Source of the DNA: Deltaproteobacteria bacterium
GTDB taxonomy: Bacteria; Desulfobacterota; WTBG01; CAIYCZ01; CAIRTM01
NCBI GenBank assembly: GCA_024276465.1
Contig: JAJRXD010000013.1
Span: forward strand, 47,390-111,389
Length of the DNA stretch: 64,000 nt
Direction of reading: 5' to 3'
The notes beneath the pieces were generated by a model. It did not search any database. It was not told the DNA's origin and saw only the letters and a list, made by a program, of their open reading frames with translations. Shown here in pieces: positions 26,383-59,441 of this stretch. Both the position numbers and the translations under genes were made by a program. Position 1 is the first letter of the stretch; each line of letters opens with the position of its first letter.

Positions 26383-26420
26383 GGTTGAGTCTCCTGGAAA
26401 TAAAATTAGACTGCGTACAG

Positions 26421-27011: not shown

Positions 27012-27037
27012 GCGTGATTCCTTTCAATACTGTTATC

Positions 27038-27484: not shown

Positions 27485-27541
27485 ATGCCTGTCTCCCCGT
27501 ACATGTTTTTTGTAAAGTTTTAATAGTTTCATTTATGTTTT

Positions 27542-42611: not shown

Positions 42612-42619
42612 TCAAGAAG

Positions 42620-42650
42620 ACAAAAAAGGAAATTCTTTTTTGCTTCTCAG
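42620..42650. terminator. imperfect hairpin between convergent phoR and the DUF45 gene
   Basis: gaagacaaaaaaggaaattcttttttgcttc is an inverted repeat. Confidence 0.35.
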
Positions 42651-43399
42651 ATTATGACTTTTTCCAGGCGTTGCTTACGCTTTTCCCAGTCCGGCAGAAT
42701 TCGTCCGAGAAGCTGGTAAAATTTCCTGTCATGTTGCGGACAGATCAGATGACACAGTTCATGTATAATCACATAATCAATACAGTGGATAGGTGCCTTG
42801 ACAAGTTCTGTGTTCAACATGATGTTGCCATTGCCAGAACAGCTGCCCCATCGTTTTTTTATACGGCGATAGCGCACTTGCGGTTCTGTTACGCCCATCC
42901 TCACAAAGGCTTGCAGGTAATAAGCAAGTCTTCTTGTAAGCAAATCCCTGGCATGTTCCGAATACCAATCAAGCATAAGTGCTTTGGCTTTTTCCCTTTT
43001 GTTTGGATCTGGTAACTGCATTTCAAAAAAACGACCGAGCAATCGTACTCGTGGTGTATCGCCACGTCGTGTTCTCAAACGATACTGCCGCCCCAAATAA
43101 TAATGAGTTTCACCGGAGACAAATTTTCGTTCCATAGGAAAGGACTGAAACTGCTCAAAAAAATCAAGTTGCCGGGCTATCCATGATGCCCGCTTTACAA
43201 GTCGCTGCTGAACAACTTCCAGCTCATATCCTGCAGGTGTTTTTGCCACGATTTTAAGGTCTGGGTACACTGTAATGGAAAGACGTTTGCGCTCGCTCCA
43301 CATAACATCCACAGCGAACTGTCGTCGTCCAAAACTTATTTTTATTTTTTCGCTTTTCACGCCAGTCACGGTTTCCTGATCCTGGCAATATCCAGACAC
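42647..43399 (-). CDS. DUF45/YgjP-like (WLM/M48-like) zinc metallohydrolase
   Basis: 250 aa. HELCHL HExxH motif. The family commonly trails hsdR in Type I RM loci. Confidence 0.75.
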   Translation of the reverse strand: MSGYCQDQETVTGVKSEKIKISFGRRQFAVDVMWSERKRLSITVYPDLKIVAKTPAGYELEVVQQRLVKRASWIARQLDFFEQFQSFPMERKFVSGETHYYLGRQYRLRTRRGDTPRVRLLGRFFEMQLPDPNKREKAKALMLDWYSEHARDLLTRRLAYYLQAFVRMGVTEPQVRYRRIKKRWGSCSGNGNIMLNTELVKAPIHCIDYVIIHELCHLICPQHDRKFYQLLGRILPDWEKRKQRLEKVII

Positions 43400-46300
43400 T
43401 GTTCCATTATCGCATCCATCTCCTCAAACGTAATTTCAATACCTTCTCTGTCTTTAAAGTCAAAAAGAAGGTCTTCGATATCATTCCTCATACGATTTTG
43501 TGTGTCCATATCACTATCCCAGCTAACAATACGGTTTCGTTCAATGACTTCATCTATAGCCAGCGCAACATCGGCAAGAACATCTTCGAAATCATCCCGG
43601 CCGTTATCCAATCGCCCGATGATTTCCTTAAGAGAACCAAAATAGGCCTTGGCAACATCATGGCTCTTGAGTTTTTCCGGAATTCGGTCTCCAGTACGGT
43701 TACGCACTGCGTTCATAATCTCCGTAACTTTCCTGAGATACTCATTTGCCTTAATCCGTTCTTCCCTGAAAGCCGCGATAGCAGCAATCAGGAGCTCTGA
43801 GAACCGTTTATAGAAAGCCGGGTCTTCCTGCATGCGCTCATGGATTGTTCGGGCTGTACGATGGGCAATTGTGTCGGCTTTGGCGGCCGCGTTCGGCAGT
43901 TTTTCCACTTCCCGGGCAAAGGCATCGGCATCAAAGATGTTAACCAGAGAGGTGATTTTTTCCACCTCACCGGTGCCGACATGCGTATCCAGCAGTTTTT
44001 GAATCTTAGGTTCGTATTCGCTAAAATCCACGACTTCTGCATATCGTTTCCTCACCGCCGTGCGCAGCTTGGAGAAAAACTTCAGGTCCGCCCGATAACG
44101 ACTCAACTTTTCCGGATCGGTTTCCTCTAAAAACTTTACGCTGGACAGTGCAATACCAAGCGTTTTTGAAAATGCCGATAAACGTTCATAAAACCTGGTC
44201 CGCAGCCCCACATCCGCCAGCGCCAGCTCGTAGGCTTCCTCATCCTGCTTGTTCTTGACCTCTTTAAATGTATCCCACAGGAGAGAATGCTTCTGAGGAA
44301 GTGTTGATGTCTCCACACTCACATCGGTGAGAATATTCTCAATATCTCCGGAATCAAACTCTGATAACGTGCTGTAAAGGTCCAGGGCGTGGTCGAGGTT
44401 TTCCAGGACCCCGCGATAATCGATGATATATCCGAAATCTTTGCTATTGCTCAGCCGGTTGACCCTGGCGATGGCTTGCAGCAGGGTATGGTCCTTCAGT
44501 TTCCGCATCAGGTAAAGAATGGTATTTCGGGGCGCGTCGAATCCAACGAGCAACTTATCTACCACAATAATTATTTCGGGATGTTCCGCGTTTTTGAAGG
44601 CATTGATAATCTGTTTGTTGTACTCCCGTTCGCTGCCGTATTTGCTGATGATCGTTTTCCAGAACCGATGCACGGCCAGTTTGTTTTCTTCATACAGGTC
44701 CTCTTCACCTTCCCGTTCGTCGGGACCCGAGATCAGCACTTCGCATGACACCATGGCGAATTCATCCAGATATTTTTTGTAGAGTAACGCGGCAGCCTTG
44801 TCCTGCGTCACCATTTGCCCCTTAAACCCTGTTCCTTGCCAGTTGTCACGAAAGTGCTCGCTGATATCCCAGGCAATGGCCATAACCTTCTGCGCCGCCT
44901 TGTTCAATTGGTCAGTGGTTGCGAATTTTTTTTTCAGGTCTGCAGATTGTTCATCGCTCAAGTTGGTTGTGATTCGCTCGAACCAGGCGTCGATACCATT
45001 GGAGTCTACGTGCTGTTCAACGTGTCTGCCCTCATATAAAAGGGGAACAACCGCCTTATCAGCCACCGCCCGGTCGATGGTATAGGTATCAATCAGGCCG
45101 CCGAATTTTTCGACCGTGTTTTTGTCCTTCTTCATCACCGGCGTCCCGGTGAAACCGATGTAACAGGCGTTCGGTAATACCCGACGCATTTTGGCATGGC
45201 GCGGGCCGTACTGGCCGCGATGGCCTTCATCTATCAGAACAAAAATATCGGGATCATCGTTGCGCACAACGTGCCGACCGACAGCCGCCTCAAATTTGTC
45301 GATGATCGTTGTTACAATGCGCTGTTTATTGCCTTTCAGCATCTGCGACAGGTGCTTGCCGGTTCCGGCCTGCTCAACTTCCTTGCCGCAATGGTGGAAG
45401 GTTCTGTATATCTGGTCATCAAGATCAACCCGGTCGGTCACCAGGACGATTTTGTAGTCGGTAATTTCAGGGCACAGGGCGATGGACTTGGCAAGCAGTA
45501 CCATGGTCAAGGACTTGCCGCTGCCCTGGGTGTGCCAGACCACGCCGCCCCGCCGTCTGCCGTTTTGTTCGCGATTCCCGATGCGGTCCATAATTTTTCT
45601 GACGGCAAAGTATTGCTGATACCGTGCGATCTTCTTGACACCGGCATCAAACAGAATAAAGCGATAGGTCAATTCAAGGAGCCGTTCAGGACGGCACAAT
45701 GCATAAAGTGCTCGATCCTGCTCAGTCACCTGTCTTTTAAGAGTGCCGTAAGCGGTCGGTTTTTCCCGTACCATCCACTCATTGTCAGTGAACAGCCTGT
45801 CCACCTGATTTTCAGTCAGGGGAATGTTTACCAATTCTTTCAAGGGCGGATGACCATCCGCCCCTACAGTTTCGATATTGTCTTCCCGCCATGCAGACCA
45901 GAATTTCAAAGGCGTTCCCGTAGTTGCGTATTTGGCCTCATTCTTTGACAACACCAAAAGGAGCTGAGAATAGATAAACAGATGAGGAATTTCGTCATGT
46001 TTCTGGTTGCGGATCTGCTGGGATATGGCCTGCGCAAGCGACTCCTTGATGTGCGGCGATTTACATTCGATCACGCAAAAGGGAATACCATTTACAAAGA
46101 GTACTATATCCGGTCTGCGGGTCTGGTGACTGCCGGCCCGCTCAACGGTAAATTCTTCCGTGACATGAAAGATGTTGTTGTCCGGATGTTCCCAGTCGAT
46201 ATAATGCAGGGTAAAACTCTTGATATCGCCGTCCACTGACTGCTGCAGGCTTTTGCCCAGGCACAACAGGTCATAAATTTTCTCATTGGTACGCACCAGT

Positions 46301-46563
46301 CCGTCAAAGGGAATCTCTTTGAGTGCCTGCAGGGCGCTCAGGATATTGCCCTCGGTAAACGGCAGCTCTCTTCCCTTGAATCTGACCCGGTTATTTTTCC
46401 GCAGCCAGTCAGCAAGAATTCCCTCCAGGAGTACGCCCCCCAGCCTGCCGCTCCGAAGGTCAAGAGCCTCTTTTGGTGTCAGATATTGCCATCCCAGATT
46501 CTGAAGCAGGTGCAGGGCAGGGAGCTGAGAAATGGCGTCTTCGTTTAAAACTGGCGCCCTCAT
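43366..46563 (-). CDS. hsdR: Type I restriction enzyme R subunit
   Basis: 1065 aa. HsdR N-terminal nuclease region and DEAD/DEAH helicase motifs (GSGKS, DEGHRGQ). Confidence 0.95.
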   Translation of the reverse strand: MRAPVLNEDAISQLPALHLLQNLGWQYLTPKEALDLRSGRLGGVLLEGILADWLRKNNRVRFKGRELPFTEGNILSALQALKEIPFDGLVRTNEKIYDLLCLGKSLQQSVDGDIKSFTLHYIDWEHPDNNIFHVTEEFTVERAGSHQTRRPDIVLFVNGIPFCVIECKSPHIKESLAQAISQQIRNQKHDEIPHLFIYSQLLLVLSKNEAKYATTGTPLKFWSAWREDNIETVGADGHPPLKELVNIPLTENQVDRLFTDNEWMVREKPTAYGTLKRQVTEQDRALYALCRPERLLELTYRFILFDAGVKKIARYQQYFAVRKIMDRIGNREQNGRRRGGVVWHTQGSGKSLTMVLLAKSIALCPEITDYKIVLVTDRVDLDDQIYRTFHHCGKEVEQAGTGKHLSQMLKGNKQRIVTTIIDKFEAAVGRHVVRNDDPDIFVLIDEGHRGQYGPRHAKMRRVLPNACYIGFTGTPVMKKDKNTVEKFGGLIDTYTIDRAVADKAVVPLLYEGRHVEQHVDSNGIDAWFERITTNLSDEQSADLKKKFATTDQLNKAAQKVMAIAWDISEHFRDNWQGTGFKGQMVTQDKAAALLYKKYLDEFAMVSCEVLISGPDEREGEEDLYEENKLAVHRFWKTIISKYGSEREYNKQIINAFKNAEHPEIIIVVDKLLVGFDAPRNTILYLMRKLKDHTLLQAIARVNRLSNSKDFGYIIDYRGVLENLDHALDLYSTLSEFDSGDIENILTDVSVETSTLPQKHSLLWDTFKEVKNKQDEEAYELALADVGLRTRFYERLSAFSKTLGIALSSVKFLEETDPEKLSRYRADLKFFSKLRTAVRKRYAEVVDFSEYEPKIQKLLDTHVGTGEVEKITSLVNIFDADAFAREVEKLPNAAAKADTIAHRTARTIHERMQEDPAFYKRFSELLIAAIAAFREERIKANEYLRKVTEIMNAVRNRTGDRIPEKLKSHDVAKAYFGSLKEIIGRLDNGRDDFEDVLADVALAIDEVIERNRIVSWDSDMDTQNRMRNDIEDLLFDFKDREGIEITFEEMDAIMEQCLDIARIRKP

Positions 46564-48095
46564 CGGTTTTTCTCCTGTTCAAGTAGTTGCTGTCCCTTTA
46601 TCGTCAGCCGATATTTCTGCTTGCTGCTTGTTGGCTTGTCAGGAATGGTCATTTCAATAAACGCAGCCTCGATAAGATGATTCAATACTTGCTGCCTGAA
46701 CTTGGTGCGATCTTTTCGTCCTGTAATGGACATAAGCTCAAGCAATGTACTTTCCCCCTTGCATTTATTGAGTATTTCAACTTGGTGCCGACTTAGTGCC
46801 GACTTAGTGCCAACTTGTGTATCCTGCAGCCATTTCAGAGATTCAGCAAAAACAGGATGGATAAATAATTCTACCAGAAAATAAGTCCTTTCGTCATCCG
46901 TATGGAATATAGGCGCAGGAGAACCATTGTCCCTAATCGCCCTTAACATTTTTGGAATGCCGGTTCCTCGCCCCTCGGTCATTTCAAGCTCCTTGAGGAA
47001 CTCCCCGACCCGGCGGTTACGGTATCGACGGGACAGAAAACGGAATTCTTGCATGTCTTTTTTCCGGATGGATCGGTCAGGCCCAGGAAAGCTGGAAATG
47101 GTTATACGATCCGGCAAAATGCGCACCTCCATAGGCTCCCTGATTTCATAAGAACGGTGATACACAGCGTTACAGAGGGCTTCTTCAATGGCGGCAAACG
47201 GATAGTTGAAAAAACGGTCGGCTTCTGCACGGTCAGGGTGCTTGATGATCTTTTCCTCTATCACCGTCGAGCGGATATGAGCAAGTGCATCCTGCAACAT
47301 AACGTGGAGCGGCCCAGTGAAAATCTTTTCAGTGAAAAAGTCCGCCCCGGGACCTTCAGGAAAATGCACTACATCAATCTGTGTTTGAGGGAAAAATTTG
47401 GAGGGATTGTTGTTAAAGAACATGAGGCCGACATTCCTGGGCCACACTGCTTCGTCAGGCCCGTCAGCAATGTTTATCCGGCGGCAAAGCTGGACAAAAT
47501 TCATTTTTGCCGCTTCGGGAAAAAGATCGCTTTTGACCTGCTTCAGATAGGCACGCATCAGTCCCAGATCCAAATCGTCAAAAATGGCAGCCTGGTTCAT
47601 GCGGTCGTCAAAGGGAACAGTGGCAGCAAGGCTCATTAATTCCACTTCATCCTGATGCCTGGCTCGAACAGTAACTGACCCCTTACGAATATAGTAGGCA
47701 AATTCCCTCTTGCCCTTTGCCAGAGAAACCGGGGCTTTGTAGGGCCTGGTCTGACCTCCTATGGCCCAGAGCACCAGGATGTGTTTTTCGCCAATTTTAC
47801 ATGGAGCTATAATCGGGTGATAATAAGGCACCATCCGGTAGCCAAACTCCACGATTTCTTTCTGGATGGCGTCAAGTTCCCCGGCTGGCATCCCTTGTGG
47901 CGGCAAAACAGGCCGGCCATTATCTTCTTCCACTCCGATGATGATGTATCCACCGCCAAGGTTATGAAAATCATTGGCAAAAGCACACATGGTGTGCAGC
48001 ACCTTTTCCGGGTTCCAGCCGGCCTTGAACTCCAGCCGTTCCCATTCCACGGTCCGGGCGGTGAGAAGGTCGTTTATGTTAATTGGGAGGTTCAT
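46560..48095 (-). CDS. AlbA_2 (Schlafen-like DNA-binding) and HATPase_c_4 domain ATP-binding protein
   Basis: N-terminal AlbA_2-type domain (EFKAGWNPEKVLHTMCAFANDFHNLGGGYIIIGV). Probable start MNLPININ at 48095; the ORF track starts at a GTG at 48131. Confidence 0.65.
   Translation of the reverse strand: MNLPININDLLTARTVEWERLEFKAGWNPEKVLHTMCAFANDFHNLGGGYIIIGVEEDNGRPVLPPQGMPAGELDAIQKEIVEFGYRMVPYYHPIIAPCKIGEKHILVLWAIGGQTRPYKAPVSLAKGKREFAYYIRKGSVTVRARHQDEVELMSLAATVPFDDRMNQAAIFDDLDLGLMRAYLKQVKSDLFPEAAKMNFVQLCRRINIADGPDEAVWPRNVGLMFFNNNPSKFFPQTQIDVVHFPEGPGADFFTEKIFTGPLHVMLQDALAHIRSTVIEEKIIKHPDRAEADRFFNYPFAAIEEALCNAVYHRSYEIREPMEVRILPDRITISSFPGPDRSIRKKDMQEFRFLSRRYRNRRVGEFLKELEMTEGRGTGIPKMLRAIRDNGSPAPIFHTDDERTYFLVELFIHPVFAESLKWLQDTQVGTKSALSRHQVEILNKCKGESTLLELMSITGRKDRTKFRQQVLNHLIEAAFIEMTIPDKPTSSKQKYRLTIKGQQLLEQEKNR
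46785..46817. repeat. 11-bp tandem repeat, 3 copies, inside the AlbA_2 gene
   Basis: gtgccgactta gtgccgactta gtgccaacttg. Confidence 0.6.
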
Positions 48096-48105
48096 ATTTT
48101 CACCT

Positions 48106-48897
48106 TTAATTTCCGGTTTCAGGGCAGACACGCAGGTCTGCCCCTACAACGGCAGGGTTTTCCCGGTCGTGTTCCCATTTGGCCGGATTATCAATGATGT
48201 ATTGGCGAAGGCGGTTTAATTCGTTTTCATTGCGGACAATATGTTCCCAATAATTGCGTTGCCATAATTTGCCGTCAAATCGTGGCCAACCGCATTGTTT
48301 GACACCACGGATATATTCATTGGTTGTTATGGTTTTAAACCATTGAACCACCGCCCGTAGGGGCGCACCTGTGTGTGCGCCCGTTGTTTCGTGTGCGTCC
48401 GGTTCGGGTTCGCCTGGTTCCATGTGTTCGTCCGTTTTGTGGTTGTCCGAATCGTGGTTGTCCCCTATGTGTTCCCGCGGTTTTGTAGGGGCAATCCTGC
48501 GTGATTGCCCATTGTTCCGTGATCGCACATCACTAGGGCAGACACGCAGGTCTGTTTCAGGGCAGACACGCAGGTCTGCCCCTACATTGACAACAACACC
48601 GTGAAAATGATTCGGCATAACAATATATTCATCACATCGAATATCCGGGAATTTGTTTTCTAATTCCTGATACCATTTCTTCACCATCCGTCCCGGATCA
48701 TTCAATACCATTTCACCATCCACAATTTTACCAAACATACATTCCCGATTCTGTGTGCATATTGTCACAAAATATGCCCCTGATTGCGAATAATCATATC
48801 CCCGCAAACGGATAGACCGACGGTTTCGTTCCCGCCGTAGGGGCAACCCCCTGTGGTTGCCCACATCCAATTCTGTATCCGAATCCCGTTTAATCAT
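48106..48897 (-). CDS. REP-associated tyrosine transposase (RAYT, IS200/IS605 TnpA-like HUH enzyme) with REP palindromes inside the ORF
   Basis: HUH motif MPNHFHGVV and Tyr motif LWQRNYWEHIVRNE...YIIDNPAKW. The spacing between the two motifs is about 57 aa longer than canonical because of a REP-containing in-frame insert. Confidence 0.8.
   Translation of the reverse strand: MIKRDSDTELDVGNHRGLPLRRERNRRSIRLRGYDYSQSGAYFVTICTQNRECMFGKIVDGEMVLNDPGRMVKKWYQELENKFPDIRCDEYIVMPNHFHGVVVNVGADLRVCPETDLRVCPSDVRSRNNGQSRRIAPTKPREHIGDNHDSDNHKTDEHMEPGEPEPDAHETTGAHTGAPLRAVVQWFKTITTNEYIRGVKQCGWPRFDGKLWQRNYWEHIVRNENELNRLRQYIIDNPAKWEHDRENPAVVGADLRVCPETGN
48122..48147 (-). repeat. REP element (GTAG-headed palindrome) overlapping the RAYT stop
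   Basis: Minus strand reads gtaggggcagacctgcgtgtctgccc. Confidence 0.75.
48357..48382 (+). repeat. REP element variant inside the RAYT ORF
   Basis: gtaggggcgcacctgtgtgtgcgccc. Confidence 0.7.
48485..48510 (+). repeat. REP element variant inside the RAYT ORF
   Basis: gtaggggcaatcctgcgtgattgccc. Confidence 0.7.
48536..48585 (-). repeat. tandem REP pair: a truncated copy at 48536-48554 and a full copy at 48560-48585
   Basis: gggcagacacgcaggtctg tttca gggcagacacgcaggtctgcccctac. Confidence 0.75.
48837..48862 (+). repeat. REP element variant in the 5' part of the RAYT ORF
   Basis: gtaggggcaaccccctgtggttgccc. Confidence 0.7.
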
Positions 48898-49946
48898 ATT
48901 TCTACCCTGATTTCCCCTGTCAGCAGTTTCTGCATCAGGCCCTTCTTTTGTTCCAATAATTTCTCCTGTTTCTTTTTCAATAATTCAATTTCCCGGTCGC
49001 AGGTGGAAAGAGTCCCTGCTATACGTTTTTGTTCGTCTGTGGTAGGCAAGTGAACCGTGGTCTTCATCACAGCGGATGTTGTTAGACCAAACCGCGTGGC
49101 TCCATTAGCATGTGTCGTGAAATGCTTTCGTGACCGTGCGCTACCCAATTCCTTTGACAGAAAAACGGGGTTGACTTCTACGGAGTTCGGGCGGATGAGT
49201 GCGAGGTGATAACCGCATACAACATTCTCTAATTTCTCTGTGACAACTGCCGGAATGCCTATATCATCGGGTGTCTCTGAATCTTTCGTAATCATGACGT
49301 CACCCTGTCGCAGTAAGAACCTTTCAATCTCGGAAGCCGAAGCCGTTGCTGGCATGAAGTTCAGGTCAACGGTGATATAGTCATTCGCATAGACATCCAT
49401 GTAGTTGCAGAGCCTGACGGGTATTTCATCGGTATGAGTCTTCTTGTCCACGCCGCTGAAGGAAACGTGAGCGATGCTGCCAATGGGCCTCTCTTCCCAC
49501 CCCTCCGGCAGTTCGCCTCTTTTCTCAACCGGTTTGCCAAACTCAGGGAACCGCATCCGGCCGGAGAGCAGTTGCTGCATCAGCCCTTTTTTGAGTAATT
49601 CAGCGAAATCTCGATCTACGAGAGCAGGAACAGCAATGTCATCGGCTGTTTCGGAATCCTTTGTAATGAGGACGTCACCCTTTTGCAGAGAATAGCGTTC
49701 AATCTCTCGTGGCATTGCCGTAGCGGACATGAATGAGATGGCGTCTGAAATATGGGCGTTGTAGTAAACGTCCGTATAATTGCACAGGCGTACTGCCTGC
49801 TCTCCCTTATGTGATTTTTTGTCGACGTTGCTGAAACGTACATCAGCGACATCCTCAAGCCGCACACATTCCCATTCCTCCGGTATCCACCCAACTTTGG
49901 AATCCTTATATCCGAGCCTGTTTTCGTTCCGCTTGCTCATGCGCAT
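48894..49946 (-). CDS. hsdS: Type I restriction-modification specificity subunit with two similar target-recognition domains
   Basis: 350 aa. Duplicated TRD blocks (VRLCNYTDVY...ITKDSETADDIAVPALV and VRLCNYMDVY...ITKDSETPDDIGIPAVV). Conserved coiled-coil spacer regions. Confidence 0.85.
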   Translation of the reverse strand: MRMSKRNENRLGYKDSKVGWIPEEWECVRLEDVADVRFSNVDKKSHKGEQAVRLCNYTDVYYNAHISDAISFMSATAMPREIERYSLQKGDVLITKDSETADDIAVPALVDRDFAELLKKGLMQQLLSGRMRFPEFGKPVEKRGELPEGWEERPIGSIAHVSFSGVDKKTHTDEIPVRLCNYMDVYANDYITVDLNFMPATASASEIERFLLRQGDVMITKDSETPDDIGIPAVVTEKLENVVCGYHLALIRPNSVEVNPVFLSKELGSARSRKHFTTHANGATRFGLTTSAVMKTTVHLPTTDEQKRIAGTLSTCDREIELLKKKQEKLLEQKKGLMQKLLTGEIRVEI

Positions 49947-50698
49947 TTCTCCCGCTTGGCCTGTTCGCGTGCCATCTCATCGAGTTCTTTCTTCAGAGCT
50001 TTTGGGAGAAGGCTCCAGTCAAAATCTTTCATCTCGCTCTCTTTCAGGCTGTAAAGAACATTGGTGGCATCCCTGATGAATCGTTCTTTGGACTGCTGTT
50101 TCAATAAATCAAGCATGGATGCTCCGTGACATCTCCGCAGTATCTTCCCGGAACCGCAGGGACAAACGTGATGCCCCCGATATGTCCCATCGGCCATCAG
50201 TTTTAATAATGACAGCACGATCTGAACATCATCGGTGTTAAACAGGTCTTGATAGTATTCCCGGATACCATTTGCCCCATGAGAGAGTTCACCGAAAGGC
50301 ATTTCGCCATGTTTCTCAAAGTATGCATATCCATACAGGTACTCGACAACCAGCGTTTCCACAAAGGTGACAAGGCGGGGATCGGCCTTGAATCGCCTCC
50401 ATACTTCAACCGGGGCTCCAAGGCACAGAGTCCGATCACCATACTGATGGAAATTTGGTGGGATTCGACCGCCGGTCTCCTGAACCGTGGGTGGAGAATC
50501 CGGGTAGTCACGGGGCAGCATGATCAGAATAGAGAATACGTCCGTGATTGTCACTTTTTGAAACGTCGCAGAGAACGACAGCATCCCCCGAATCACCCAC
50601 CGGCAGGGGGCGTCTTCGTATAGTTTCAGCCCGGAGGAATATTTCCCTGACAATTCCTCGAACTGCTGCCGGATCAGTGCTTCTTTGCCGTTATTCAA
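49937..50698 (-). CDS. E2/UBC-like protein with C-terminal SEC-C-like zinc motif (CBASS Cap2-like, E2-only)
   Basis: HPN-like loop and catalytic Cys (IPPNFHQYGDRTLCLGAP). C-terminal HVCPCGSGKILRRCHG. 4-nt overlap with the nucleotidyltransferase gene. Confidence 0.55.
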   Translation of the reverse strand: MNNGKEALIRQQFEELSGKYSSGLKLYEDAPCRWVIRGMLSFSATFQKVTITDVFSILIMLPRDYPDSPPTVQETGGRIPPNFHQYGDRTLCLGAPVEVWRRFKADPRLVTFVETLVVEYLYGYAYFEKHGEMPFGELSHGANGIREYYQDLFNTDDVQIVLSLLKLMADGTYRGHHVCPCGSGKILRRCHGASMLDLLKQQSKERFIRDATNVLYSLKESEMKDFDWSLLPKALKKELDEMAREQAKREKCA

Positions 50699-51858
50699 GA
50701 TTCACGCCCCCACGGCTTGCTGGGCTTGGTAATACTGATACTTGGGGCTACGGCTGCAACGGCACTTACAGAGCTTGAACGAGTTGGAAAGGCCCTTGAA
50801 TCTGCCTCATTGACAATGCGGTCGCCAAACCGAGGTTTGAGGTTCTCGATCATGTCATCGAGGTCCCCAGCGCGAAGGGCGGCATCCAGATCGACACGAA
50901 CCTGTTGTATCCACTCGCGGAACTTGACTTCCAACTCTGGGTGTTTCCTCCATTTGTCGGCAAAGTTCTCGGGATGATCGGTCACATCAACCGGGTTTGC
51001 AACGAGGGCGTTACCCTGTTCATCCCGTCCAATCAGACCGGGCATCTTGTTGACGATATTCTGCAGCGCATCAAGAAGATCGGCTTCGTTGTTGTATGCA
51101 TGACCGGCAAGTGTCGTAATGATGATTGAAATAGGCCGATTACCCAAGTCGTCTTTAAACATGATGTCCCTGTGCCGCTTGAGAATCTGGATGGATCGTT
51201 GCAGCGGGGTTTTGACCTTGTATTCCGGGACATCCTCAATGCTTGCTCGAAGCGATTCGGCCAGCAACATGCGTTTGGCATCAAACTGCACGCGCGTGCG
51301 CTCCTTGAACCACTCGGCATAGCCGACGGGATTACTCCGTTGCCAATTGTATAGTTCCCGGTCGGTTATAAGAATTGCGCTTTGGGCAAGGTTCGCACCG
51401 ATCTCACGGGCTATTCCGTTGATATCGTCATCGGGAATTGCCGGCAGAATGTCCATGTGGAAACGGGCTGAGTCGGCATATTGCAGTGTCCAGCAGCGTT
51501 TGCCCTCTTTGAGCATCTTGCGATACCGTTCATTTTCCTTCAGGCGGTCCCCGACCATATCCTTAAGTTGCTTCTGGGTGACGTTTTCTTTTCTTAGAGC
51601 CTTCAATTCACAAACGAGGTCGATGTCATATTCGTCCTTATCGTTTACAGGTTTGATCATCGTGCCCAGACGAAATGAACCTTGTGGATAGATTTGGGGA
51701 TCATACTCAGCTATGGGCGAATCATCCTTATTCAGCCAGTCACCAACCGCCTCGTAATGCTTTACAGCCGCTTCGTACTGTGCATCGGAGATATCCAGTG
51801 ATTCCGCCAATTCCTGAAACAACTGCCTGAGTTCATTATGTCGTTCCTGTGTCATCAC
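50695..51858 (-). CDS. cGAS/DncV-like nucleotidyltransferase (CD-NTase)
   Basis: 387 aa. Pol-beta NTase signature QGSFRLGTMIKPVNDKDEYDIDLV (GS...DxD) and a downstream acidic residue (FHMDILP). Flanked by a patatin effector and an E2-like gene. Confidence 0.7.
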   Translation of the reverse strand: MMTQERHNELRQLFQELAESLDISDAQYEAAVKHYEAVGDWLNKDDSPIAEYDPQIYPQGSFRLGTMIKPVNDKDEYDIDLVCELKALRKENVTQKQLKDMVGDRLKENERYRKMLKEGKRCWTLQYADSARFHMDILPAIPDDDINGIAREIGANLAQSAILITDRELYNWQRSNPVGYAEWFKERTRVQFDAKRMLLAESLRASIEDVPEYKVKTPLQRSIQILKRHRDIMFKDDLGNRPISIIITTLAGHAYNNEADLLDALQNIVNKMPGLIGRDEQGNALVANPVDVTDHPENFADKWRKHPELEVKFREWIQQVRVDLDAALRAGDLDDMIENLKPRFGDRIVNEADSRAFPTRSSSVSAVAAVAPSISITKPSKPWGRES

Positions 51859-52823
51859 ATACCTCCGTTGTTGAGGTCCAAAAAAGTCTTGATCATTTCC
51901 GCCTTATGCGAGAAATCCCTATCAGCACGAGACTTCAAATCGCGCAGGTCAGCCGGATCGTCCAAAGGAAGCGCAGAGTCTGAGTCAAAATTGAGTCTTA
52001 AAATCTGCTCTGGTCTCAGGAGAAGACCTGTCATGTTGTTGGCTGTTTCAGATTGAAGATTTAGCAGCATTGAAATGAACTTTCCATGCTGCCAGCGTGT
52101 TGCAAATCCCCAGCCCTGATATCGCTTCCACCATGGCCGCTTCTGTGGATAAAAGCTACGGCTAACTCCTGTGCCGAGGGTAAACACCTTAAGGGAGTCA
52201 AGGTCCTTGCCAAGCCGCTTTTTGGCGTCAATTACTGCAACAAGTGAAGGACTGTTTGCCCACAACCCCCCATCGGCCAGAAGGTACTCACCTACATTTT
52301 GAGGATCGAAATAGGTGGGGGCTGAGCAGGATGCCATAACGGCATCTCGGATAAGAACGTTGCGGTCACGGACAAACCCTTTATCATAGCCCGACTTGAA
52401 CACATGAACACATCCGTTCCCGATGTCAGTTGCCGGAATAATGAGTGGCGTTGTTACTTGCCCAAGTCGGCGGTCAGCAAAAACCTCCTGCAGAATGTCA
52501 CGAAGGTATTGGTTTCTGTATCGACTCCTAATAAAACCAAAGCGTGGCATAAACCGGCGAGGAAATATCTGAGCACCGTGTTCTTCGTAGAATTCCACGA
52601 TGTCACACGCGCGCATTTCGCACGCAAGTCCTGCCGCAACTATTGAACCGGTACTCGTACCTGCAATCAATTGAAAATGATTTCGCAAATCCAAGTCGTA
52701 TTCTTGCTCAATCCGGGCAAGAATATGGGCGGCATAGACGCCACGAAATCCACCACCGTCAACGGAAAGAATACGGAAGGAGTTGTCTGCAGAACTTGAC
52801 AGAACAGGGTTCGATTTGCTCAT
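51855..52823 (-). CDS. capV: patatin-like phospholipase (CapV-like CBASS effector)
   Basis: 322 aa. Oxyanion hole DGGGFRG, nucleophile elbow GTSTG, catalytic dyad Asp in ADGG. Confidence 0.85.
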   Translation of the reverse strand: MSKSNPVLSSSADNSFRILSVDGGGFRGVYAAHILARIEQEYDLDLRNHFQLIAGTSTGSIVAAGLACEMRACDIVEFYEEHGAQIFPRRFMPRFGFIRSRYRNQYLRDILQEVFADRRLGQVTTPLIIPATDIGNGCVHVFKSGYDKGFVRDRNVLIRDAVMASCSAPTYFDPQNVGEYLLADGGLWANSPSLVAVIDAKKRLGKDLDSLKVFTLGTGVSRSFYPQKRPWWKRYQGWGFATRWQHGKFISMLLNLQSETANNMTGLLLRPEQILRLNFDSDSALPLDDPADLRDLKSRADRDFSHKAEMIKTFLDLNNGGM

Positions 52824-54340
52824 AGACCCAGTTCCTTTAAATAACCGCCGAGTTTTTTCTGAGTACTTGCAAGCTCCGTCTCGATCTCTTCAATTTCCTT
52901 TTGAACGGCAGAAATGTCGATGTCCTCTTCTTCCTCAAAGGTATCCACATAGCGGGGGATATTCAGATTGAATTCGGCTTCCTGAATCTCTTCCAGCGTT
53001 GCCAGGTGGGAGTATTTTTCTACTTCCTCGAATTTGCGGAACGTAGAGATGATCTTTTCGATATCTTCATCCCGCAGGCGGTTCTGCTTTTTCTCGTCTT
53101 TAAACTCGCGGCTGGCGTCTATAAAAAGAACATGCTTATCACGTTTGTTCTTTGCCGTTTTCCAGGGTTTCCTGCCCTTGTTGAAAACAAGAATGGCCGC
53201 CGGTATCCCGGTGCCGTAGAAAAGCTGGGCGGGTAGACCAATAACCGCTTCAAGGATATTGTCCTCAATGAACGCCTTCCGGATAACGCCTTCCGCTCCA
53301 CCACGAAACAGAACCCCGTGAGGCACAATGACGCCCACCTTGCCTTCACCCTCCAGGGTAATTTCAACCATGTGGCTGATAAAAGCGTAATCGCCCCGGC
53401 TTTTTGGCGGGACCCCGCGCCAGAAGCGGTTGAACCGGTCGTGACTTGCATTTTCCTGGCCCCACTTATCCAGAGAAAACGGCGGATTGGCAACCACGAC
53501 ATTGAAGCGCATCAGTTCGTCGTTCTCTATCAGCCTGGGGTTGTTGATGGTGTCGCACCATTCAATGCGGGCAGAATCCATTGAATGCAAAAACATGTTC
53601 ATTCGGCACAGGGACCAGGTGGAACCGTTGGACTCCTGGCCGGACAGGGCAAAATTCGGACTCCCGACTTCCTGACCGACTTTGATGAGAAGCGATCCTG
53701 ACCCGCAGGCCGGGTCACAGATACGGTCTCCGTCTTTGGGATTAAGCAATTTGGCAAGCAGCGTGGAAACTTCGGCTGGAGTGTAGAACTCGCCGGCTTT
53801 TTTCCCGGCCCCGGCCGCAAAACGGGAAATCAGGTATTCATACACGTCACCGATTACGTCACGATTCCCAATGCGTGAGGGGCGCAAATCAAGACGCTCA
53901 TCGGCAAAGTCCTCCAGAAGATTCTTCAGGCGGCGGTTGCGCTCCTTGGTCTGACCCAAGGCAGGTTCGCTGTTGAAATCAATATTGCGAAAAACATTTT
54001 CGAGTTTCGACTTGTTGGCATCCTCGATTTTTTCAAGGGCAATATTGATGATCTCACCGATATTGGGCTCGTCGCGTCTGCTGTAGAGGGAATTAAAGTT
54101 TGATTCCGGAGGCACCACAAAGCGTTCCCGGGCCAGTGCTCTTTCCACTCGGGCAGCATCACCATTATATTTTTTCTCGTATTCGGCTCTTTTGTCCTTC
54201 CACAGGTCGCTCATGTACTTGATGAAGAGCATGGTAAGGATGTAATTCTTGTATTCCGACGGATCGACTGCGCCCCTGAAGGTGTCGCAGGCCCGCCAGA
54301 CAACATCATTGATTTCTTTTTGGGAAACGTGAGGACTCAT
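52820..54340 (-). CDS. hsdM: Type I restriction-modification N6-adenine DNA methyltransferase subunit
   Basis: 506 aa. HsdM N-terminal domain. SAM-binding motif DPACGSGS. Catalytic NPPF (VVANPPFS). Confidence 0.95.
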   Translation of the reverse strand: MSPHVSQKEINDVVWRACDTFRGAVDPSEYKNYILTMLFIKYMSDLWKDKRAEYEKKYNGDAARVERALARERFVVPPESNFNSLYSRRDEPNIGEIINIALEKIEDANKSKLENVFRNIDFNSEPALGQTKERNRRLKNLLEDFADERLDLRPSRIGNRDVIGDVYEYLISRFAAGAGKKAGEFYTPAEVSTLLAKLLNPKDGDRICDPACGSGSLLIKVGQEVGSPNFALSGQESNGSTWSLCRMNMFLHSMDSARIEWCDTINNPRLIENDELMRFNVVVANPPFSLDKWGQENASHDRFNRFWRGVPPKSRGDYAFISHMVEITLEGEGKVGVIVPHGVLFRGGAEGVIRKAFIEDNILEAVIGLPAQLFYGTGIPAAILVFNKGRKPWKTAKNKRDKHVLFIDASREFKDEKKQNRLRDEDIEKIISTFRKFEEVEKYSHLATLEEIQEAEFNLNIPRYVDTFEEEEDIDISAVQKEIEEIETELASTQKKLGGYLKELGL

Positions 54341-54343
54341 TTT

Positions 54344-54928
54344 TTATCTCTCCTGTTCTTGAATTGCATTTAAGCAGGCAGCCTTGACAAGACGTGATCG
54401 CGTCTGCGCAAGCCTTTCCAGAAGGAATTGTTCGCGACTGGCAAGCGCTACGCTTAGCACAATTTTTTTCTGAATGGAAACCGGCGGAATCATGACTTGC
54501 AGACGGGAAAGCGTGTGCTTGGAGACAAATGAGATCCCCGTTCCCCGGGCCTGTGCCCTCAGCCAGGCTTGCGCTTTTGACTGATTCAGCCACCAAGCCA
54601 GATATTGTGGAATAATCTCATTCCCTTTCACGCGAAGGATATAGAAAGAACCTGAAGCAAGTGTGTTCTTCAAATCAGCTTCAATATAACCGGCAAAATG
54701 AGCTATTCCACGAGCCTGAAAAAGTATATCGCCTTTGCAAACAGAATAAATTTCAGGCTTTCGCTCAGGGAAAAATGCAGTAAGATTATCCGGCATTAAA
54801 CAATGAAGACAATCGAAATCTTTGGTTTGAATAAGATAATGCGTACCTTTTACATTTTCCTTAATGCTGGCTTTTGCCTGATATCCTGCCTGAATGCTGG
54901 CAACTGTTTTTAAAAAAGTGCTTGTCAT
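54344..54928 (-). CDS. truncated or half-size Type I specificity subunit (single TRD)
   Basis: 194 aa. One TRD plus a conserved C-terminal helical region (IPPVSIQKKIV...LERLAQTRSRL). Lies immediately upstream of hsdM. Confidence 0.6.
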   Translation of the reverse strand: MTSTFLKTVASIQAGYQAKASIKENVKGTHYLIQTKDFDCLHCLMPDNLTAFFPERKPEIYSVCKGDILFQARGIAHFAGYIEADLKNTLASGSFYILRVKGNEIIPQYLAWWLNQSKAQAWLRAQARGTGISFVSKHTLSRLQVMIPPVSIQKKIVLSVALASREQFLLERLAQTRSRLVKAACLNAIQEQER

Positions 54929-55303
54929 TAAATTAATACCACAACAATGTCAGTATTAGCCCTACTTATTGCTAAATATAGCATAAGCTTGATTTAATGT
55001 CAAGAAAAATAATAAGTAATAAATCTACTAACTTGTTTCCTTCCGGTTTTTCGCACCTGTCAACATCAACCTGAGGAAGGAAAAACAAACAAACTGCAGA
55101 ATGTAACCTATTGATATTGACTCAAAAAATACAGGAAAAGGTTTCACTACATAAACAACATTTTTTCTCCTGTCCCTAAATTAACCCAAAATTAACAAAA
55201 CCCTTATCAGGGGTTAACAGAACTAACCTAATTAATACAACTAAGCCATGGTGCTTAAAATGGAAATTTAATTTAATTAATTACAAACACGGAAGGTAAA
55301 CTT

Positions 55304-56335: not shown

Positions 56336-56508
56336 TGTCCAAAACAAGGTATTAACATATTGTTTTTGCATGTGTTTCAAGGTTGAGATTGCTTCGGTCG
56401 TACTTCCCTCGCAATGACATTAACTGTTTGATTTTGCTTTGCATTGTCATTGCGAGCGAAGCGTGGCAATCTCGTTCTTGGACAACAATGAAAAAGATTC
56501 TATAATGT
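56321..56508. repeat. 170-bp palindromic insertion at the pstS/pstC junction bounded by 18-bp direct repeats
   Basis: DR aaaaagattctataatgt at 56321-56338 and 56491-56508. Internal composite IR 56385-56473 (gagattgc...ctcgcaatgaca / tgtcattgcgag...gcaatctc). Confidence 0.65.
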
Positions 56509-57461: not shown

Positions 57462-57810
57462 TGGCAACACCTGAACAGAGTGATTTTACCTGTGAGAGTT
57501 TTCCCCACAACAGGTTTTCACTCATTCTCGGCAGACATCCATGTCTGCCTGTGAGGTAAGCATTACGTTTCACCATCCAGGTGAAAATAGTGTAATGCTT
57601 AAACCCGTTCAAACCTGCTGTGGGGAAAGTTCTTTGCAAAACCATATCCTTAAGAACCGGCTTTATTGTGTGTCGAAATCAACTGTTCAGGTGGATAGAC
57701 TGAAGATTGAAGACTGTTGGATTACTTCAGCCTTTAACCTGAACACCTGGGTAGTTACCATTGAATCACAGAAACAAAACTACTCAAACATTGTGTGACA
57801 GGGCAGTAGC

Positions 57811-59399: not shown

Positions 59400-59441
59400 A
59401 ATTGATGAAATCGTCAAATTTAATTAGGAAGAGATAAAACA

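What the first reader, a model, noticed from the sequence alone, without database searches (positions are those of the whole stretch)
42612..55303. A 12.3-kb defence island is inserted between phoBR and pstSCAB-phoU
phoB/phoR (40201-42611) and pstS-pstC-pstA-pstB-phoU (55304-60104) are functionally linked Pho-regulon genes that are commonly contiguous. Here they are separated by a block of ten minus-strand defence and mobile genes: DUF45, hsdR, AlbA_2-ATPase, RAYT, hsdS, E2, CD-NTase, capV, hsdM and half-hsdS. The block reads against the flanking genes. This looks like an accessory island acquired at the phoR/pstS junction. No integrase, tRNA or obvious long direct repeats were found at the boundaries (42612-42646 and 54929-55303), so the insertion mechanism is unclear.
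Basis: inference. Interest (0 to 1): 0.6.

Follow-up and report, generated by a model that had tools for sequence, protein, structure and literature searches.

The report
Defence operon inserted between phoR and pstS
A 12.4-kb block of foreign DNA carrying one operon of anti-phage genes (a type I restriction system with a CBASS suicide system nested inside it) sits between the phosphate-sensing genes and the phosphate-transporter genes; it is a real acquired island, but of a kind already described.

Summary
The block is compositionally foreign (GC 0.49 against 0.42; GC3 mostly 0.46-0.60 against 0.31-0.47). It is absent from all relatives found. Those carry phoR followed directly by pstS, or by same-strand phosphate genes such as Porin_5 and PHO4.

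The same cassette recurs at 79-97% protein identity in other metagenomic contigs at unrelated sites, for example after ssrA or after a ribonucleotide reductase gene. Its order is half-hsdS / hsdM / capV / CD-NTase / E2 / hsdS / cargo / hsdR / ygjP. It is therefore a horizontally moved, integrase-less composite defence operon, with homology limits at about 42643 and 55036. The pstS Pho box is intact.

How it inserted remains unknown: I found no tRNA, integrase or direct repeats. Embedding of defence genes in type I R-M operons is already published, so this is a new member of a known kind.

Side findings:
- REP hairpins lie inside the RAYT gene.
- A ~60-bp duplicate of the hsdS 5' end flanks the CBASS cassette in related copies.
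- Paired RGTA-N7-TACY palindromes bracket the promoter in all seven copies that include the promoter region. Six of these also show the conserved half-HsdS gene just downstream.

The parts
40201..42611 (+). phoB (40201-40881) and phoR (40878-42611): native left flank
   Evidence: Pfam Response_reg + Trans_reg_C, and sCache/HAMP/HisKA/HATPase_c. Synteny with relatives.
42612..42646 (.). 35-bp spacer between the convergent phoR and ygjP genes. It forms an A/U-rich hairpin on both strands, probably the phoR terminator. Island homology ends at about 42643.
   Evidence: Fold of -15.2 and -16.8 kcal/mol, z -3.8 and -4.1. End of homology to L081 and L103.
42647..43399 (-). YgjP-like (DUF45) Zn-metallopeptidase, last gene of the operon
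   Evidence: PF01863, 1e-57. Follows hsdR in L081, L083, L089, L097 and L103.
43366..46563 (-). hsdR, type I restriction subunit (1065 aa, full length)
   Evidence: TIGR00348, 496 bits. PADLOC REase_I, 1e-229. 82-91% identical to L081, L083 and L089.
46560..48131 (-). AlbA_2 (Schlafen-like) + HATPase_c_4 + winged-helix protein: cargo between hsdS and hsdR
   Evidence: Pfam. L081 keeps only a 67-nt stub of its 5' end.
48106..48897 (-). RAYT-like HUH/Y1 gene. Five REP hairpins (GTAGGGGC + stem-loop) lie inside it or at its ends: 48122-48147, 48357-48382, 48485-48510, 48560-48585 and 48837-48862.
   Evidence: 5 matches against 0.03 expected; none elsewhere in 64 kb.
48894..49946 (-). hsdS, 350 aa. 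The first target-recognition domain is incomplete.
   Evidence: Alignment with 401-415 aa homologues. Its TRD1 is 60% identical to the first 78 aa of TRD2, then about 100 aa are missing.
49937..50698 (-). E2-only Cap2-like protein of the CBASS
   Evidence: PADLOC E2, 1e-82.
50695..51858 (-). CD-NTase (cGAS/DncV-like cyclase) with a conserved C-terminal ...KPWG plus a short extension
   Evidence: SMODS and DncV-like NTase. PADLOC cyclase, 1e-139. PDB 9woo at 3e-70 and SmCdnG 8hsb at 1e-38. C-termini.
51855..52823 (-). CapV, patatin-like phospholipase effector
   Evidence: NF041079, 234 bits above the cut-off of 200. 93-97.5% nucleotide identity in all copies.
52820..54340 (-). hsdM, type I methyltransferase; its stop overlaps the capV start
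   Evidence: TIGR00497, 297 bits. Coordinates.
54344..54928 (-). Conserved single-TRD 'half-HsdS', first gene of the operon
   Evidence: Methylase_S. Identity to the window copy is 74, 70, 57 and 42% in the four aligned copies (L081, L086, L083, L097), with many invariant residues. A 193-aa Methylase_S gene sits at the same place in L103.
54952..55036 (-). Island promoter region: -35 TTGACA and -10 TATATT (55003 to 54975), bracketed by two palindromes RGTA-N7-TACY (55015-55029 and 54952-54966). Island homology starts at about 55034-55036.
   Evidence: Promoter scan, 11 of 12 matches with an extended TG. The motif pair is present in all 7 copies with upstream sequence.
55037..55303 (+). Native pstS upstream region with a Pho-box-like TTAAC-N6-TTAAC at 55178-55199
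   Evidence: 20-22-nt matches to sequences upstream of Pho-type genes in L100, L102 and L001.
55304..60104 (+). pstS, pstC, pstA, pstB and phoU: native right flank
   Evidence: Pfam. Synteny.

Best explanation
**What it is.** The block at about 42643-55036 is a horizontally acquired composite defence operon with no mobility gene that accounts for the move. It belongs to a recurrent cassette family built on a type I R-M scaffold: half-hsdS, hsdM, slot A, capV-CD-NTase-E2, slot B, hsdS, slot C, hsdR, ygjP.

**How it is expressed.** It is probably transcribed as one unit from its own sigma-70-type promoter, away from pstS. It ends at the hairpin it shares with the convergent phoR.

**How it works (inferred from family knowledge).**
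- HsdM2S methylates the host's own DNA. HsdR2M2S translocates along and cuts unmodified incoming DNA.
- The nested E2-CBASS is a second layer for phages that escape restriction. The CD-NTase makes a cyclic nucleotide on infection. That nucleotide activates the CapV phospholipase, which destroys the membrane and kills the cell (abortive infection). The E2 cleaves and attaches to the cyclase's C-terminal Gly tail and so regulates it.
- Because the genes overlap, translation of the CBASS genes and hsdS is probably coupled to hsdM.

**How the cassette was assembled (shown by comparison).**
- It was built by nested insertions and exchanges inside the hsd operon. In L087 and L081 the CBASS unit lies between two copies of the first ~60 nt of hsdS.
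- Cargo in the slots differs from copy to copy.
- capV is near-identical across copies that are otherwise divergent.

**How it reached this site (not shown).** The likeliest route is recombination during uptake of foreign DNA. This may have replaced the Pho-type porin genes that relatives carry in this interval. It left the pstS Pho box and the phoR terminator intact.
For: **Gene identities and arrangement**
- Gene identities.
- 4-nt overlaps between most neighbouring genes.
- Own promoter.

**Foreign origin**
- Foreign GC and GC3.
- The cassette core keeps GC3 of about 0.51-0.65 (hsdM, CD-NTase) in hosts whose flanks differ. L086 flank 0.44 with island 0.48; L097 flank 0.50 with island 0.44.
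- Absent from relatives, which have phoR-pstS or phoR-porin-pstS.

**The same cassette elsewhere**
- L081/L082: hsdM 95%, capV 97%, CD-NTase 90%, hsdR 91%.
- L083-85 and L089.
- L086, which lies 423 bp after the tmRNA gene.
- L097/L098, after a ribonucleotide reductase gene.
- L087, L091 and L092.
- L103, the same scaffold without CBASS.
- Sources.
- HsdR relatives at 72-93% identity carry source names from several phyla.

**Assembly history and mechanism**
- Homology limits.
- hsdS 5' duplication around CBASS: (58 of 61 nt identical in L087).
- capV mosaic.
- E2-CBASS mechanism: PMC12948482. Conserved KPWG tail.
- Embedding in type I R-M as a known phenomenon: 10.1101/2024.01.29.577857, PMC11411939, PMC12255303.
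Against: - There is no island-free genome of the same species or genus (nearest PhoR 66%). The empty site is therefore inferred from distant synteny, not seen.
- No integrase, att repeats, tRNA or transposon ends were found, so the act of insertion is unexplained.
- The two terminal genes (ygjP GC3 0.41, half-hsdS 0.39) look host-like in composition and are the most divergent from other copies (63% and 76% aa). This could mean an older residence with a later swap of the centre.
- HsdS lacks about 100 aa of TRD1 and the central helix, so the restriction arm may be inactive here.
- Single-operon transcription, activity of any component, and any functional coupling between R-M and CBASS are all untested.
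Confidence: 0.85

Rival explanations
1. The block is an old resident of this locus, a lineage-specific R-M operon inherited vertically. Its central part was later overwritten by homologous recombination with an incoming related cassette. The 'island' would then be a replaced allele rather than an insertion between phoR and pstS.
For: - The terminal genes have host-like GC3 (0.39 and 0.41), while the centre is at 0.46-0.60.
- They are also the least similar to other copies: ygjP 74% and half-hsdS 78% nucleotide identity, against 84-97.5% (mostly 89-97.5%) for the shared central genes from hsdM to hsdR, hsdS apart (58.5%).
- Mosaic exchange inside the family is demonstrated for capV.
- An unrelated type I R-M and a Fic gene also follow phoR in a Syntrophorhabdus MAG, L008.
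Against: - None of the PhoR-bearing loci examined has this scaffold at phoR/pstS.
- The half-hsdS and ygjP of L097 and L083 also vary in GC3, so low GC3 at the ends is not specific to this host.
- Even if this reading is true, the first arrival was still an acquisition.
Confidence: 0.15
2. The block was moved by the RAYT/REP module it carries. HUH/Y1 enzymes cut and join single-stranded DNA at hairpins and leave no target duplication, which would explain the lack of repeats at the ends.
For: - The RAYT has intact HUH and Tyr motifs.
- Five REP hairpins with the canonical 5' GTAG are present.
- A degenerate REP sits just upstream of the CBASS cassette in L081.
- The island has no terminal repeats.
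Against: - All REPs in the window lie within 48122-48862. None is at or near either island end.
- Copies L083, L089, L097 and L103 lack the RAYT yet have the same scaffold and the same end at ygjP.
- RAYTs form a very large family (26,678 representatives at E<=0.001). They are generally regarded as domesticated single-copy genes (own knowledge).
Confidence: 0.04
3. The block is an assembly or binning artefact: a foreign 12-kb fragment joined into a MAG contig.
For: The source appears to be a metagenome-type NCBI contig of 117,585 bp. The composition changes sharply at the edges.
Against: - Two chimeric joins would have to fall exactly in the two intergenic spacers.
- They would also have to restore the phoBR ... 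pstSCAB-phoU order and orientation seen in relatives.
- The outer stem of the spacer hairpin pairs the phoR stop region with the last codons of ygjP.
Confidence: 0.03

Closest known systems
Defence systems genetically embedded in type I R-M operons. Examples: Payne et al. 2024 'guilt by embedding' (10.1101/2024.01.29.577857), TgvAB in V. cholerae VPI-2 (PMC11411939), DarTG2 in the EPEC RRDM island (PMC12255303)
   Same: Complete defence modules sit between hsd genes of one operon and are co-transcribed from one promoter. Cargo differs between related operons.
   Different: - Here the embedded module is an E2-type CBASS placed between hsdM and hsdS.
- There are three variable slots.
- The first gene is a conserved half-HsdS. 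No RptR-like regulator is present, and the promoter palindromes (RGTA-N7-TACY) differ from the RptR site TAGCTA.
- I did not find CBASS named among embedded systems in the main text of Payne et al.. The supplements were not read.
E2-CBASS (type II 'short' CBASS), e.g. Serratia marcescens SmCdnG-SmE2 (PMC12948482)
   Same: A CD-NTase followed by a stand-alone E2, with no E1 or JAB. The cyclase has an extended C-terminus ending in Gly plus a few residues. The best PDB matches include CdnG. The effector is a patatin.
   Different: Identity to SmCdnG is low (E 1e-38). The operon is not free-standing: it is translationally linked to hsdM upstream and hsdS downstream.
Classical genomic or defence islands at tRNA/tmRNA hotspots
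   Same: Foreign composition, patchy distribution and defence cargo. One sister copy (L086) lies 423 bp downstream of ssrA.
   Different: No integrase, tRNA or att repeats at this site. The island is a single operon, bounded within a few nucleotides by its promoter and its last stop codon.
REP/RAYT systems (E. coli TnpA_REP, PDB 4er8)
   Same: HUH and Tyr motifs. Hairpins preceded by GTAG flank the gene in inverted orientation.
   Different: - The REPs also lie inside the reading frame and are translated (VGADLRVCPE).
- No REPs occur elsewhere in the 64 kb.
- The gene sits inside a defence operon.

Membership tests
Type I restriction-modification system | HsdR, HsdM and HsdS genes present | tested here: met
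   TIGR00348 496 bits (cut-off 285). TIGR00497 297 bits (cut-off 243). Methylase_S and PADLOC Specificity_I 6e-90.
Type I restriction-modification system | S subunit with two complete target-recognition domains and two conserved helices | tested here: not met
   HsdS is 350 aa against 401-415 aa in aligned relatives. TRD1 stops after 78 aa and the first central helix is missing. L103 also has a 350-aa S with a short TRD1, so the short form may be tolerated. Activity is unknown.
Type I restriction-modification system | Sequence-specific m6A methylation and ATP-dependent restriction | not testable with these tools
   Needs methylome data or biochemistry.
CBASS type II, E2-only | CD-NTase with catalytic GS...DxD...D residues | tested here: met
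   YPQGSFRLGT, YDIDLV and HMDILP are present in the translation. SMODS and DncV-like NTase. PADLOC cyclase 1e-139.
CBASS type II, E2-only | Cyclic-nucleotide-activated effector next to the cyclase | tested here: met
   CapV NF041079 at 234 bits, above the cut-off of 200. GTSTG and DGG motifs.
CBASS type II, E2-only | Stand-alone E2, with no E1 domain and no JAB peptidase | tested here: met
   253-aa protein matches PADLOC E2 at 1e-82. There is no E1 or JAB hit in any of the ten proteins.
CBASS type II, E2-only | Cyclase C-terminal Gly tail used by E2 | tested here: met
   ...ITKPSKPWG followed by 1-5 variable residues is conserved in 35 of the 42 homologue C-termini listed; exceptions are the ~500-aa AGS_C fusions P0011 and P0014 and five tails without the Gly (P0004, P0029, P0032, P0034, P0039). 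Cleavage after Gly by E2 is reported in PMC12948482. The chemistry was not tested here.
Classical integrative genomic island | Integrase or recombinase gene | tested here: not met
   No such domain in the ten proteins or in the neighbouring genes examined.
Classical integrative genomic island | Insertion next to a tRNA/tmRNA gene with flanking direct repeats | tested here: not met
   No tRNA or tmRNA in the 64 kb. No shared word of 11 nt or more at the boundaries.
Classical integrative genomic island | Atypical composition, absence from relatives, presence elsewhere | tested here: met
   10, 52, 53; 19-21, 33, 83.
REP-associated tyrosine transposase (RAYT) | HUH and catalytic Tyr motifs; family HMM above cut-off | tested here: inconclusive
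   The motifs are present and align to 4er8. NCBIfam gives 57 bits (cut-off 80) and Pfam Y1_Tnp 19.7 bits (cut-off 23). The family is large, with 1,560 representatives at E<=1e-30.
REP-associated tyrosine transposase (RAYT) | Flanked by GTAG-hairpin REPs that are also dispersed in the genome | tested here: inconclusive
   Flanking and internal REPs are present. None is dispersed in the 64 kb. The rest of the genome was not available.

The most novel reading that the evidence does not exclude
**The half-HsdS as a fixed-specificity subunit acting on the operon's own promoter.**
- The first gene encodes a conserved single-TRD 'half-HsdS'. I propose it acts as a homodimer, possibly together with HsdM. 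It would recognise the two conserved interrupted palindromes RGTA-N7-TACY that bracket the -35 and -10 elements in every copy of the cassette with upstream sequence.
- This would give the operon a built-in circuit, by DNA binding or by methylation state, that times expression of restriction and CBASS after transfer to a new host.

**The hsd genes as recombination anchors.**
- The conserved hsd genes and the ~60-nt hsdS 5' segment would serve as homology anchors through which defence cassettes such as CBASS are inserted and exchanged.
- The type I operon would then be a general carrier for defence cargo that needs no recombinase of its own.

**Supporting observations.**
- Motif pairs occur in 7 of 7 copies at a fixed geometry.
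- The half-S TRD is conserved while the full-S TRDs are hypervariable.
- Half-S homodimers are known to read interrupted palindromes, e.g. GAA-N7-TTC-type sites (PMC3874165).
- No conserved regulator gene is present in all copies.
- hsdS 5' repeats flank the CBASS cassette in two copies.

None of this was tested functionally.
Probability: 0.25. Interest if true: 0.6.

Novelty: new member of a known kind. Interest (0 to 1): 0.35.

Why it matters
- For the genome at hand, it marks 12.4 kb as accessory DNA and shows that the Pho regulon architecture was interrupted without loss of the pstS promoter.
- More generally, the locus is one instance of a well-conserved, widely transferred type I R-M scaffold with three cargo slots.
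- That scaffold is a convenient natural system for asking three questions. How are defence modules swapped without dedicated recombinases? Do restriction and abortive-infection layers in one operon act together? How is such an operon switched on safely in a new host?
- None of this overturns current views. It adds a clear example and some testable details.

Tried and rejected
- **Exact-sequence look-ups.** PhoR and PstS translated from the window found nothing. The identical PhoR does exist in the protein collection as P0121 on a 117,585-bp NCBI contig.
- **Organism name.** The taxon stays unknown. Its nearest PhoR is in Thermodesulfobacteriota/'delta proteobacterium' MAGs.
- **Carrier replicon.** Searches for the hsdM-CBASS stretch in plasmids and phages returned only generic hsdM matches of 60-80%. 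The viral-contig scan with the CD-NTase found nothing. No carrier replicon was identified.
- **Metagenome scan.** The scan with E2 gave only 7 loci, mostly short.
- **Boundary repeats.** The search gave only chance 9-10-mers.
- **RNA genes.** Rfam and ARAGORN were negative.
- **RptR-type regulation** (TAGCTA repeats, PMC12255303). Rejected: no such regulator gene is present, and the promoter motifs differ.
- **RAYT-driven mobility.** Rejected as unlikely: the REPs are confined to the RAYT gene, and RAYT-less copies exist.
- **T-arm-like sequence after ygjP in L081.** I considered it an att remnant of ssrA. It lies on the opposite strand, and ARAGORN calls no gene there. It is left unexplained.
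- **Operon-precise ends.** This should not be over-read. At 74-78% nucleotide identity in the end genes, any homologous non-coding flank could have diverged beyond detection.

Full report
**1. What is there**

Between phoB/phoR (40201-42611, + strand) and pstS-pstC-pstA-pstB-phoU (55304-60104, + strand) lie ten ORFs on the minus strand (flank identities).
- YgjP/DUF45 metallopeptidase
- HsdR
- an AlbA_2 + HATPase_c_4 + winged-helix protein
- a RAYT-like protein
- HsdS
- a stand-alone E2
- a CD-NTase
- the patatin phospholipase CapV
- HsdM
- a 194-aa single-domain HsdS

Neighbouring genes overlap by 4 nt in five of the nine junctions: hsdM/capV, capV/CD-NTase, CD-NTase/E2, hsdS/RAYT and AlbA_2/hsdR. 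The others overlap by 10-34 nt or are 3 nt apart.

A strong sigma-70-type promoter lies 47 nt upstream of the first gene. It reads TTGACA-17-TATATT with an extended TG, at 55003 to 54975 on the minus strand. The 35-bp spacer to the convergent phoR folds into a hairpin on both strands. The block therefore looks like one operon. Transcription was not tested.

**2. Is it foreign?**

*Composition.*
- GC is 0.491 in the block and 0.417 in the rest of the window. One-kb windows outside average 0.418 (sd 0.032); inside they average 0.495.
- GC3 of the eight central genes is 0.46-0.60. The other genes of the window have 0.31-0.47, except an AMP ligase at 0.51.
- The two terminal island genes are host-like, at 0.39 and 0.41.

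*Relatives.*
- The source lineage is isolated. The best PhoR matches are 66%, 63% and 56% identical.
- None of the PhoR-bearing loci I examined has this block next to phoR.
- phoR is followed within 110-230 bp by pstSCAB-phoU in L009, L016, L035 and L037.
- The three closest relatives (L100/L101, L102, L001), and also L006 and L005, have one or two Porin_5 genes between phoR and pstS. All but L005 and L006 also have a 172-174-aa ORF there. These genes are on the same strand and of the same composition as the flanks.
- L003 has a PHO4 transporter and a porin there, and L007 has phosphatases.
- No Porin_5 homologue exists anywhere in the 64-kb window.
- A 20-22-nt element with TTAAC-N6-TTAAC at 55178-55199 is shared with the upstream regions of these Pho-type genes in relatives. 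The pstS promoter region is therefore native and intact.

The ancestral interval was probably either empty or held Pho-regulon accessory genes. The island may have replaced such genes. This is an inference.

**3. The same cassette elsewhere**

*Copies with the nested CBASS.* The closest CD-NTase relatives (79-90% identity) sit in the same arrangement in independent metagenome contigs.
- L081/L082: HsdM 95%, CapV 97%, CD-NTase 90%, E2 85%, HsdR 91%, RAYT 74%, YgjP 63%, half-HsdS 76%.
- L083-L085 and L089.
- L086.
- L097/L098.
- The shorter L087, L088, L091 and L092. L092 keeps the order hsdM, patatin, CD-NTase, E2, hsdS even at 55-66% identity.

*Genomic contexts differ.* In L086 the cassette starts 423 bp after a tmRNA gene next to smpB. 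In L097 it follows a ribonucleotide reductase gene.

*The scaffold without CBASS.* L103 (HsdR 87%) has half-hsdS, hsdM, hsdS, hsdR and ygjP but no CBASS, and carries other cargo.

*CBASS without the scaffold.* Cyclase-E2 pairs at 74-78% identity have SAVED effectors and are not nested in hsd genes (L094, L095, L099).

*Cargo slots.*

| Slot | Position | Cargo seen |
|---|---|---|
| A | hsdM to capV | RhuM + Fic (L081); 23S_rRNA_IVP + DUF1016 (L097) |
| B | E2 to hsdS | DUF6119 (L097) |
| C | hsdS to hsdR | RAYT + AlbA_2 (this window); RAYT alone (L081); a 1260-aa protein + IVP (L083); SMODS-AGS_C + SLATT (L097); DUF3800 (L103) |

*Independence from the host.* The core of the cassette keeps GC3 of about 0.51-0.65 (hsdM, CD-NTase) whatever the flanks. 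HsdR relatives at 72-93% identity carry source names from several phyla. All this points to repeated horizontal transfer.

**4. Boundaries and insertion mechanism**

- Homology to L081 and L103 stops within about 5 nt of the ygjP stop codon, at window position ~42643.
- Homology to L086, L081, L089 and L103 starts at the first promoter palindrome, at ~55034-55036.
- Outside these points the sequences are unrelated.
- The ends carry no direct or inverted repeats. The 64 kb holds no tRNA or tmRNA, and no integrase was found.
- The cassette was not found on plasmids, phages or viral contigs.

I cannot say how it entered. Recombination after uptake of foreign DNA, possibly with replacement of resident genes, is the default explanation. 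Because the end genes are only 74-78% identical between copies, the apparent operon-precise ends may partly reflect loss of detectable homology in non-coding DNA.

One relative, L008 (a Syntrophorhabdus MAG), has Fic, DUF6765 and an unrelated type I R-M right after phoR. This is a hint, no more, that the junction tolerates such cargo.

**5. How the composite was built**

- In L087 the hsdM stop overlaps an hsdS start codon. Twenty-two hsdS codons follow, then the patatin gene, the CD-NTase and E2. A complete hsdS comes after that. The two hsdS 5' segments are 58 of 61 nt identical.
- L081 keeps a decayed copy of the same segment, and a degenerate REP, just upstream of capV.
- The CBASS unit therefore sits inside a duplication of the conserved hsdS 5' end. 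This is what a single crossover between a circular cassette and the operon would leave. That mechanism is an inference.
- In this window the upstream repeat is gone and hsdM abuts capV directly.
- capV is 93-97.5% identical in nucleotides among all copies, even where hsdM and hsdR are 67-70%. The high-identity block begins at the capV start codon. Its GC3 is also lower than its neighbours'. The effector has therefore spread recently among cassettes.

**6. How it most likely works**

*The R-M arm.* It is a standard type I system by family knowledge. One caveat applies: HsdS here is 350 aa and lacks the second half of TRD1 and the first central helix. Specificity, or activity itself, may be altered or lost. 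L103 also has a 350-aa S with a short TRD1.

*The CBASS arm.* It is of the E2-only type.
- The cyclase has intact GS/DxD/D motifs.
- Its best solved relatives include a cGAS-like enzyme (9woo) and SmCdnG.
- The C-terminal ...KPWG with a 1-5-residue extension is conserved in 35 of the 42 homologue C-termini listed.
- In the Serratia system the E2 cleaves the tail and links covalently to the cyclase C-terminus, regulating it (PMC12948482).
- CapV passes the NCBIfam equivalog cut-off for the cGAMP-activated lipase.

Restriction followed by abortive infection in one transcription unit is a plausible layered defence. Synergy was not tested.

**7. Comparison with what is known**

- Embedding of defence genes within type I R-M, BREX and DISARM operons is described in Payne et al. 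2024.
- Worked examples are TgvAB in VPI-2 and DarTG2 with the RptR repressor.
- E2-CBASS is an established class: 616 genomes according to PMC12948482.

The present locus is a new member of these kinds. The finding as given, a defence island between phoBR and pst, is correct but ordinary.

**8. Less ordinary details**

(a) *Promoter palindromes and the half-HsdS.*
- All seven copies with upstream sequence have two palindromes RGTA-N7-TACY. One lies 7-10 nt upstream of the -35 element and one just downstream of the -10. They are 57-64 nt apart.
- In the window the motif occurs 6 times against 1.4 expected, and 4 of the 6 are in the island.
- The only genes present in every copy are half-hsdS, hsdM, hsdS, hsdR and ygjP.
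- The half-HsdS is conserved (74, 70, 57 and 42% identity to the window copy in the four aligned copies), unlike the TRDs of the full HsdS.
- Half-size S subunits act as homodimers on interrupted palindromes (PMC3874165).
- A half-HsdS that reads the operon's own promoter is therefore a testable hypothesis.

(b) *REPs inside the RAYT gene.*
- The RAYT gene contains five REP hairpins with the canonical GTAG. Two are at its ends in inverted orientation and three are in the linker between the HUH and Tyr motifs. They are translated in frame.
- The L081 homologue has four.
- None occurs elsewhere in the window.
- The family is very large and its linker length varies.

**9. Verdict**

The insertion mechanism is unresolved. 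Interest is moderate to low for the finding itself, with a modest upside from the promoter/half-HsdS and cassette-exchange leads.

Noticed in passing
window 48106-48897 (REPs at 48122-48147, 48357-48382, 48485-48510, 48560-48585, 48837-48862; partial at 48530-48562): The RAYT-like gene carries REP hairpins (GTAGGGGC + stem-loop) at both ends and in its HUH-Tyr linker. Read in frame they give VGADLRVCPE peptides. None occurs elsewhere in the 64 kb (5 found, 0.03 expected). The L081/L082 homologue has four.
   Followed up: partly
window 54952-54966 and 55015-55029; also L081 246/308, L083 109/166, L086 6832/6893, L089 541/598, L097 5028/5092, L103 14/76: Two palindromes RGTA-N7-TACY bracket the -35/-10 of the operon promoter in all seven copies, 57-64 nt apart. 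No conserved regulator gene is present. The conserved half-HsdS is a candidate binder.
   Followed up: partly
window 48894-49946: HsdS is 350 aa. Its TRD1 is a 60%-identical copy of the first 78 aa of TRD2, then about 100 aa (the rest of TRD1 and the first central helix) are missing. The R-M arm may be defective or have altered specificity. L103 also has a 350-aa HsdS with a short TRD1.
   Followed up: partly
L087 68-130 and 2993-3060; L081 about 4870-4920 and 7810-7870: A ~60-nt copy of the hsdS 5' end lies immediately upstream of the CBASS effector gene, and the full hsdS follows E2 (58 of 61 nt identical in L087). The CBASS cassette is flanked by direct repeats of the hsdS start. The window has lost the upstream copy.
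   Followed up: partly
window 51855-52823 and the capV genes of L081, L083, L086, L097: capV is 93-97.5% identical in nucleotides across copies whose hsdM/hsdR are only 67-91% identical. Protein identity is about equal to nucleotide identity, and GC3 is lower than the neighbours'. The high-identity block starts at the capV start codon. This suggests a recent spread of the effector gene by recombination.
   Followed up: partly
L008 9619-19619: In a Syntrophorhabdus MAG, phoR is followed by a Fic gene, DUF6765 and an unrelated minus-strand type I R-M (split hsdM, hsdS, hsdR). The same junction may be a recurrent landing place for defence genes. The locus ends before any pstS could be seen.
   Followed up: no
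L081 13946-14067 (minus strand); L086 6076-6429: In L081 the ygjP end abuts a tRNA/tmRNA-like T-arm (GGACGCGGGTTCGATTCCCGC ... CCAGCCACCA) on the opposite strand, which ARAGORN does not call. In L086 the promoter end lies 423 bp after a tmRNA gene, and L081 shares about 340 bp of that spacer.
   Followed up: partly
window 55178-55199: A Pho-box-like direct repeat TTAAC-N6-TTAAC lies upstream of pstS. It is shared with the upstream regions of porin, 172-aa ORF and pstS genes in L100, L102 and L001.
   Followed up: partly
window 50695-50740 (CD-NTase C-terminus) and 42 homologues: The cyclase tail ...ITKPSKPWG followed by 1-5 variable residues is conserved in 35 of the 42 homologue C-termini listed; P0011 and P0014 (~500-aa AGS_C fusions) and five others lack it. 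This fits the reported cleavage and attachment by E2 after a C-terminal Gly.
   Followed up: partly
window 22057-28264 and 60141-61904: Other stretches have raised GC. A type IV pilus minor-pilin/PilY1 cluster has GC 0.45-0.48, and an AMP-binding ligase gene has GC3 0.51. GC alone is therefore not diagnostic in this genome.
   Followed up: no
L081 9784-9849 versus window 48048-48114: L081 keeps a 67-nt stub (84% identical) of the 5' end of the AlbA_2 gene between RAYT and hsdR. The AlbA_2 gene was probably deleted there rather than gained here.
   Followed up: no
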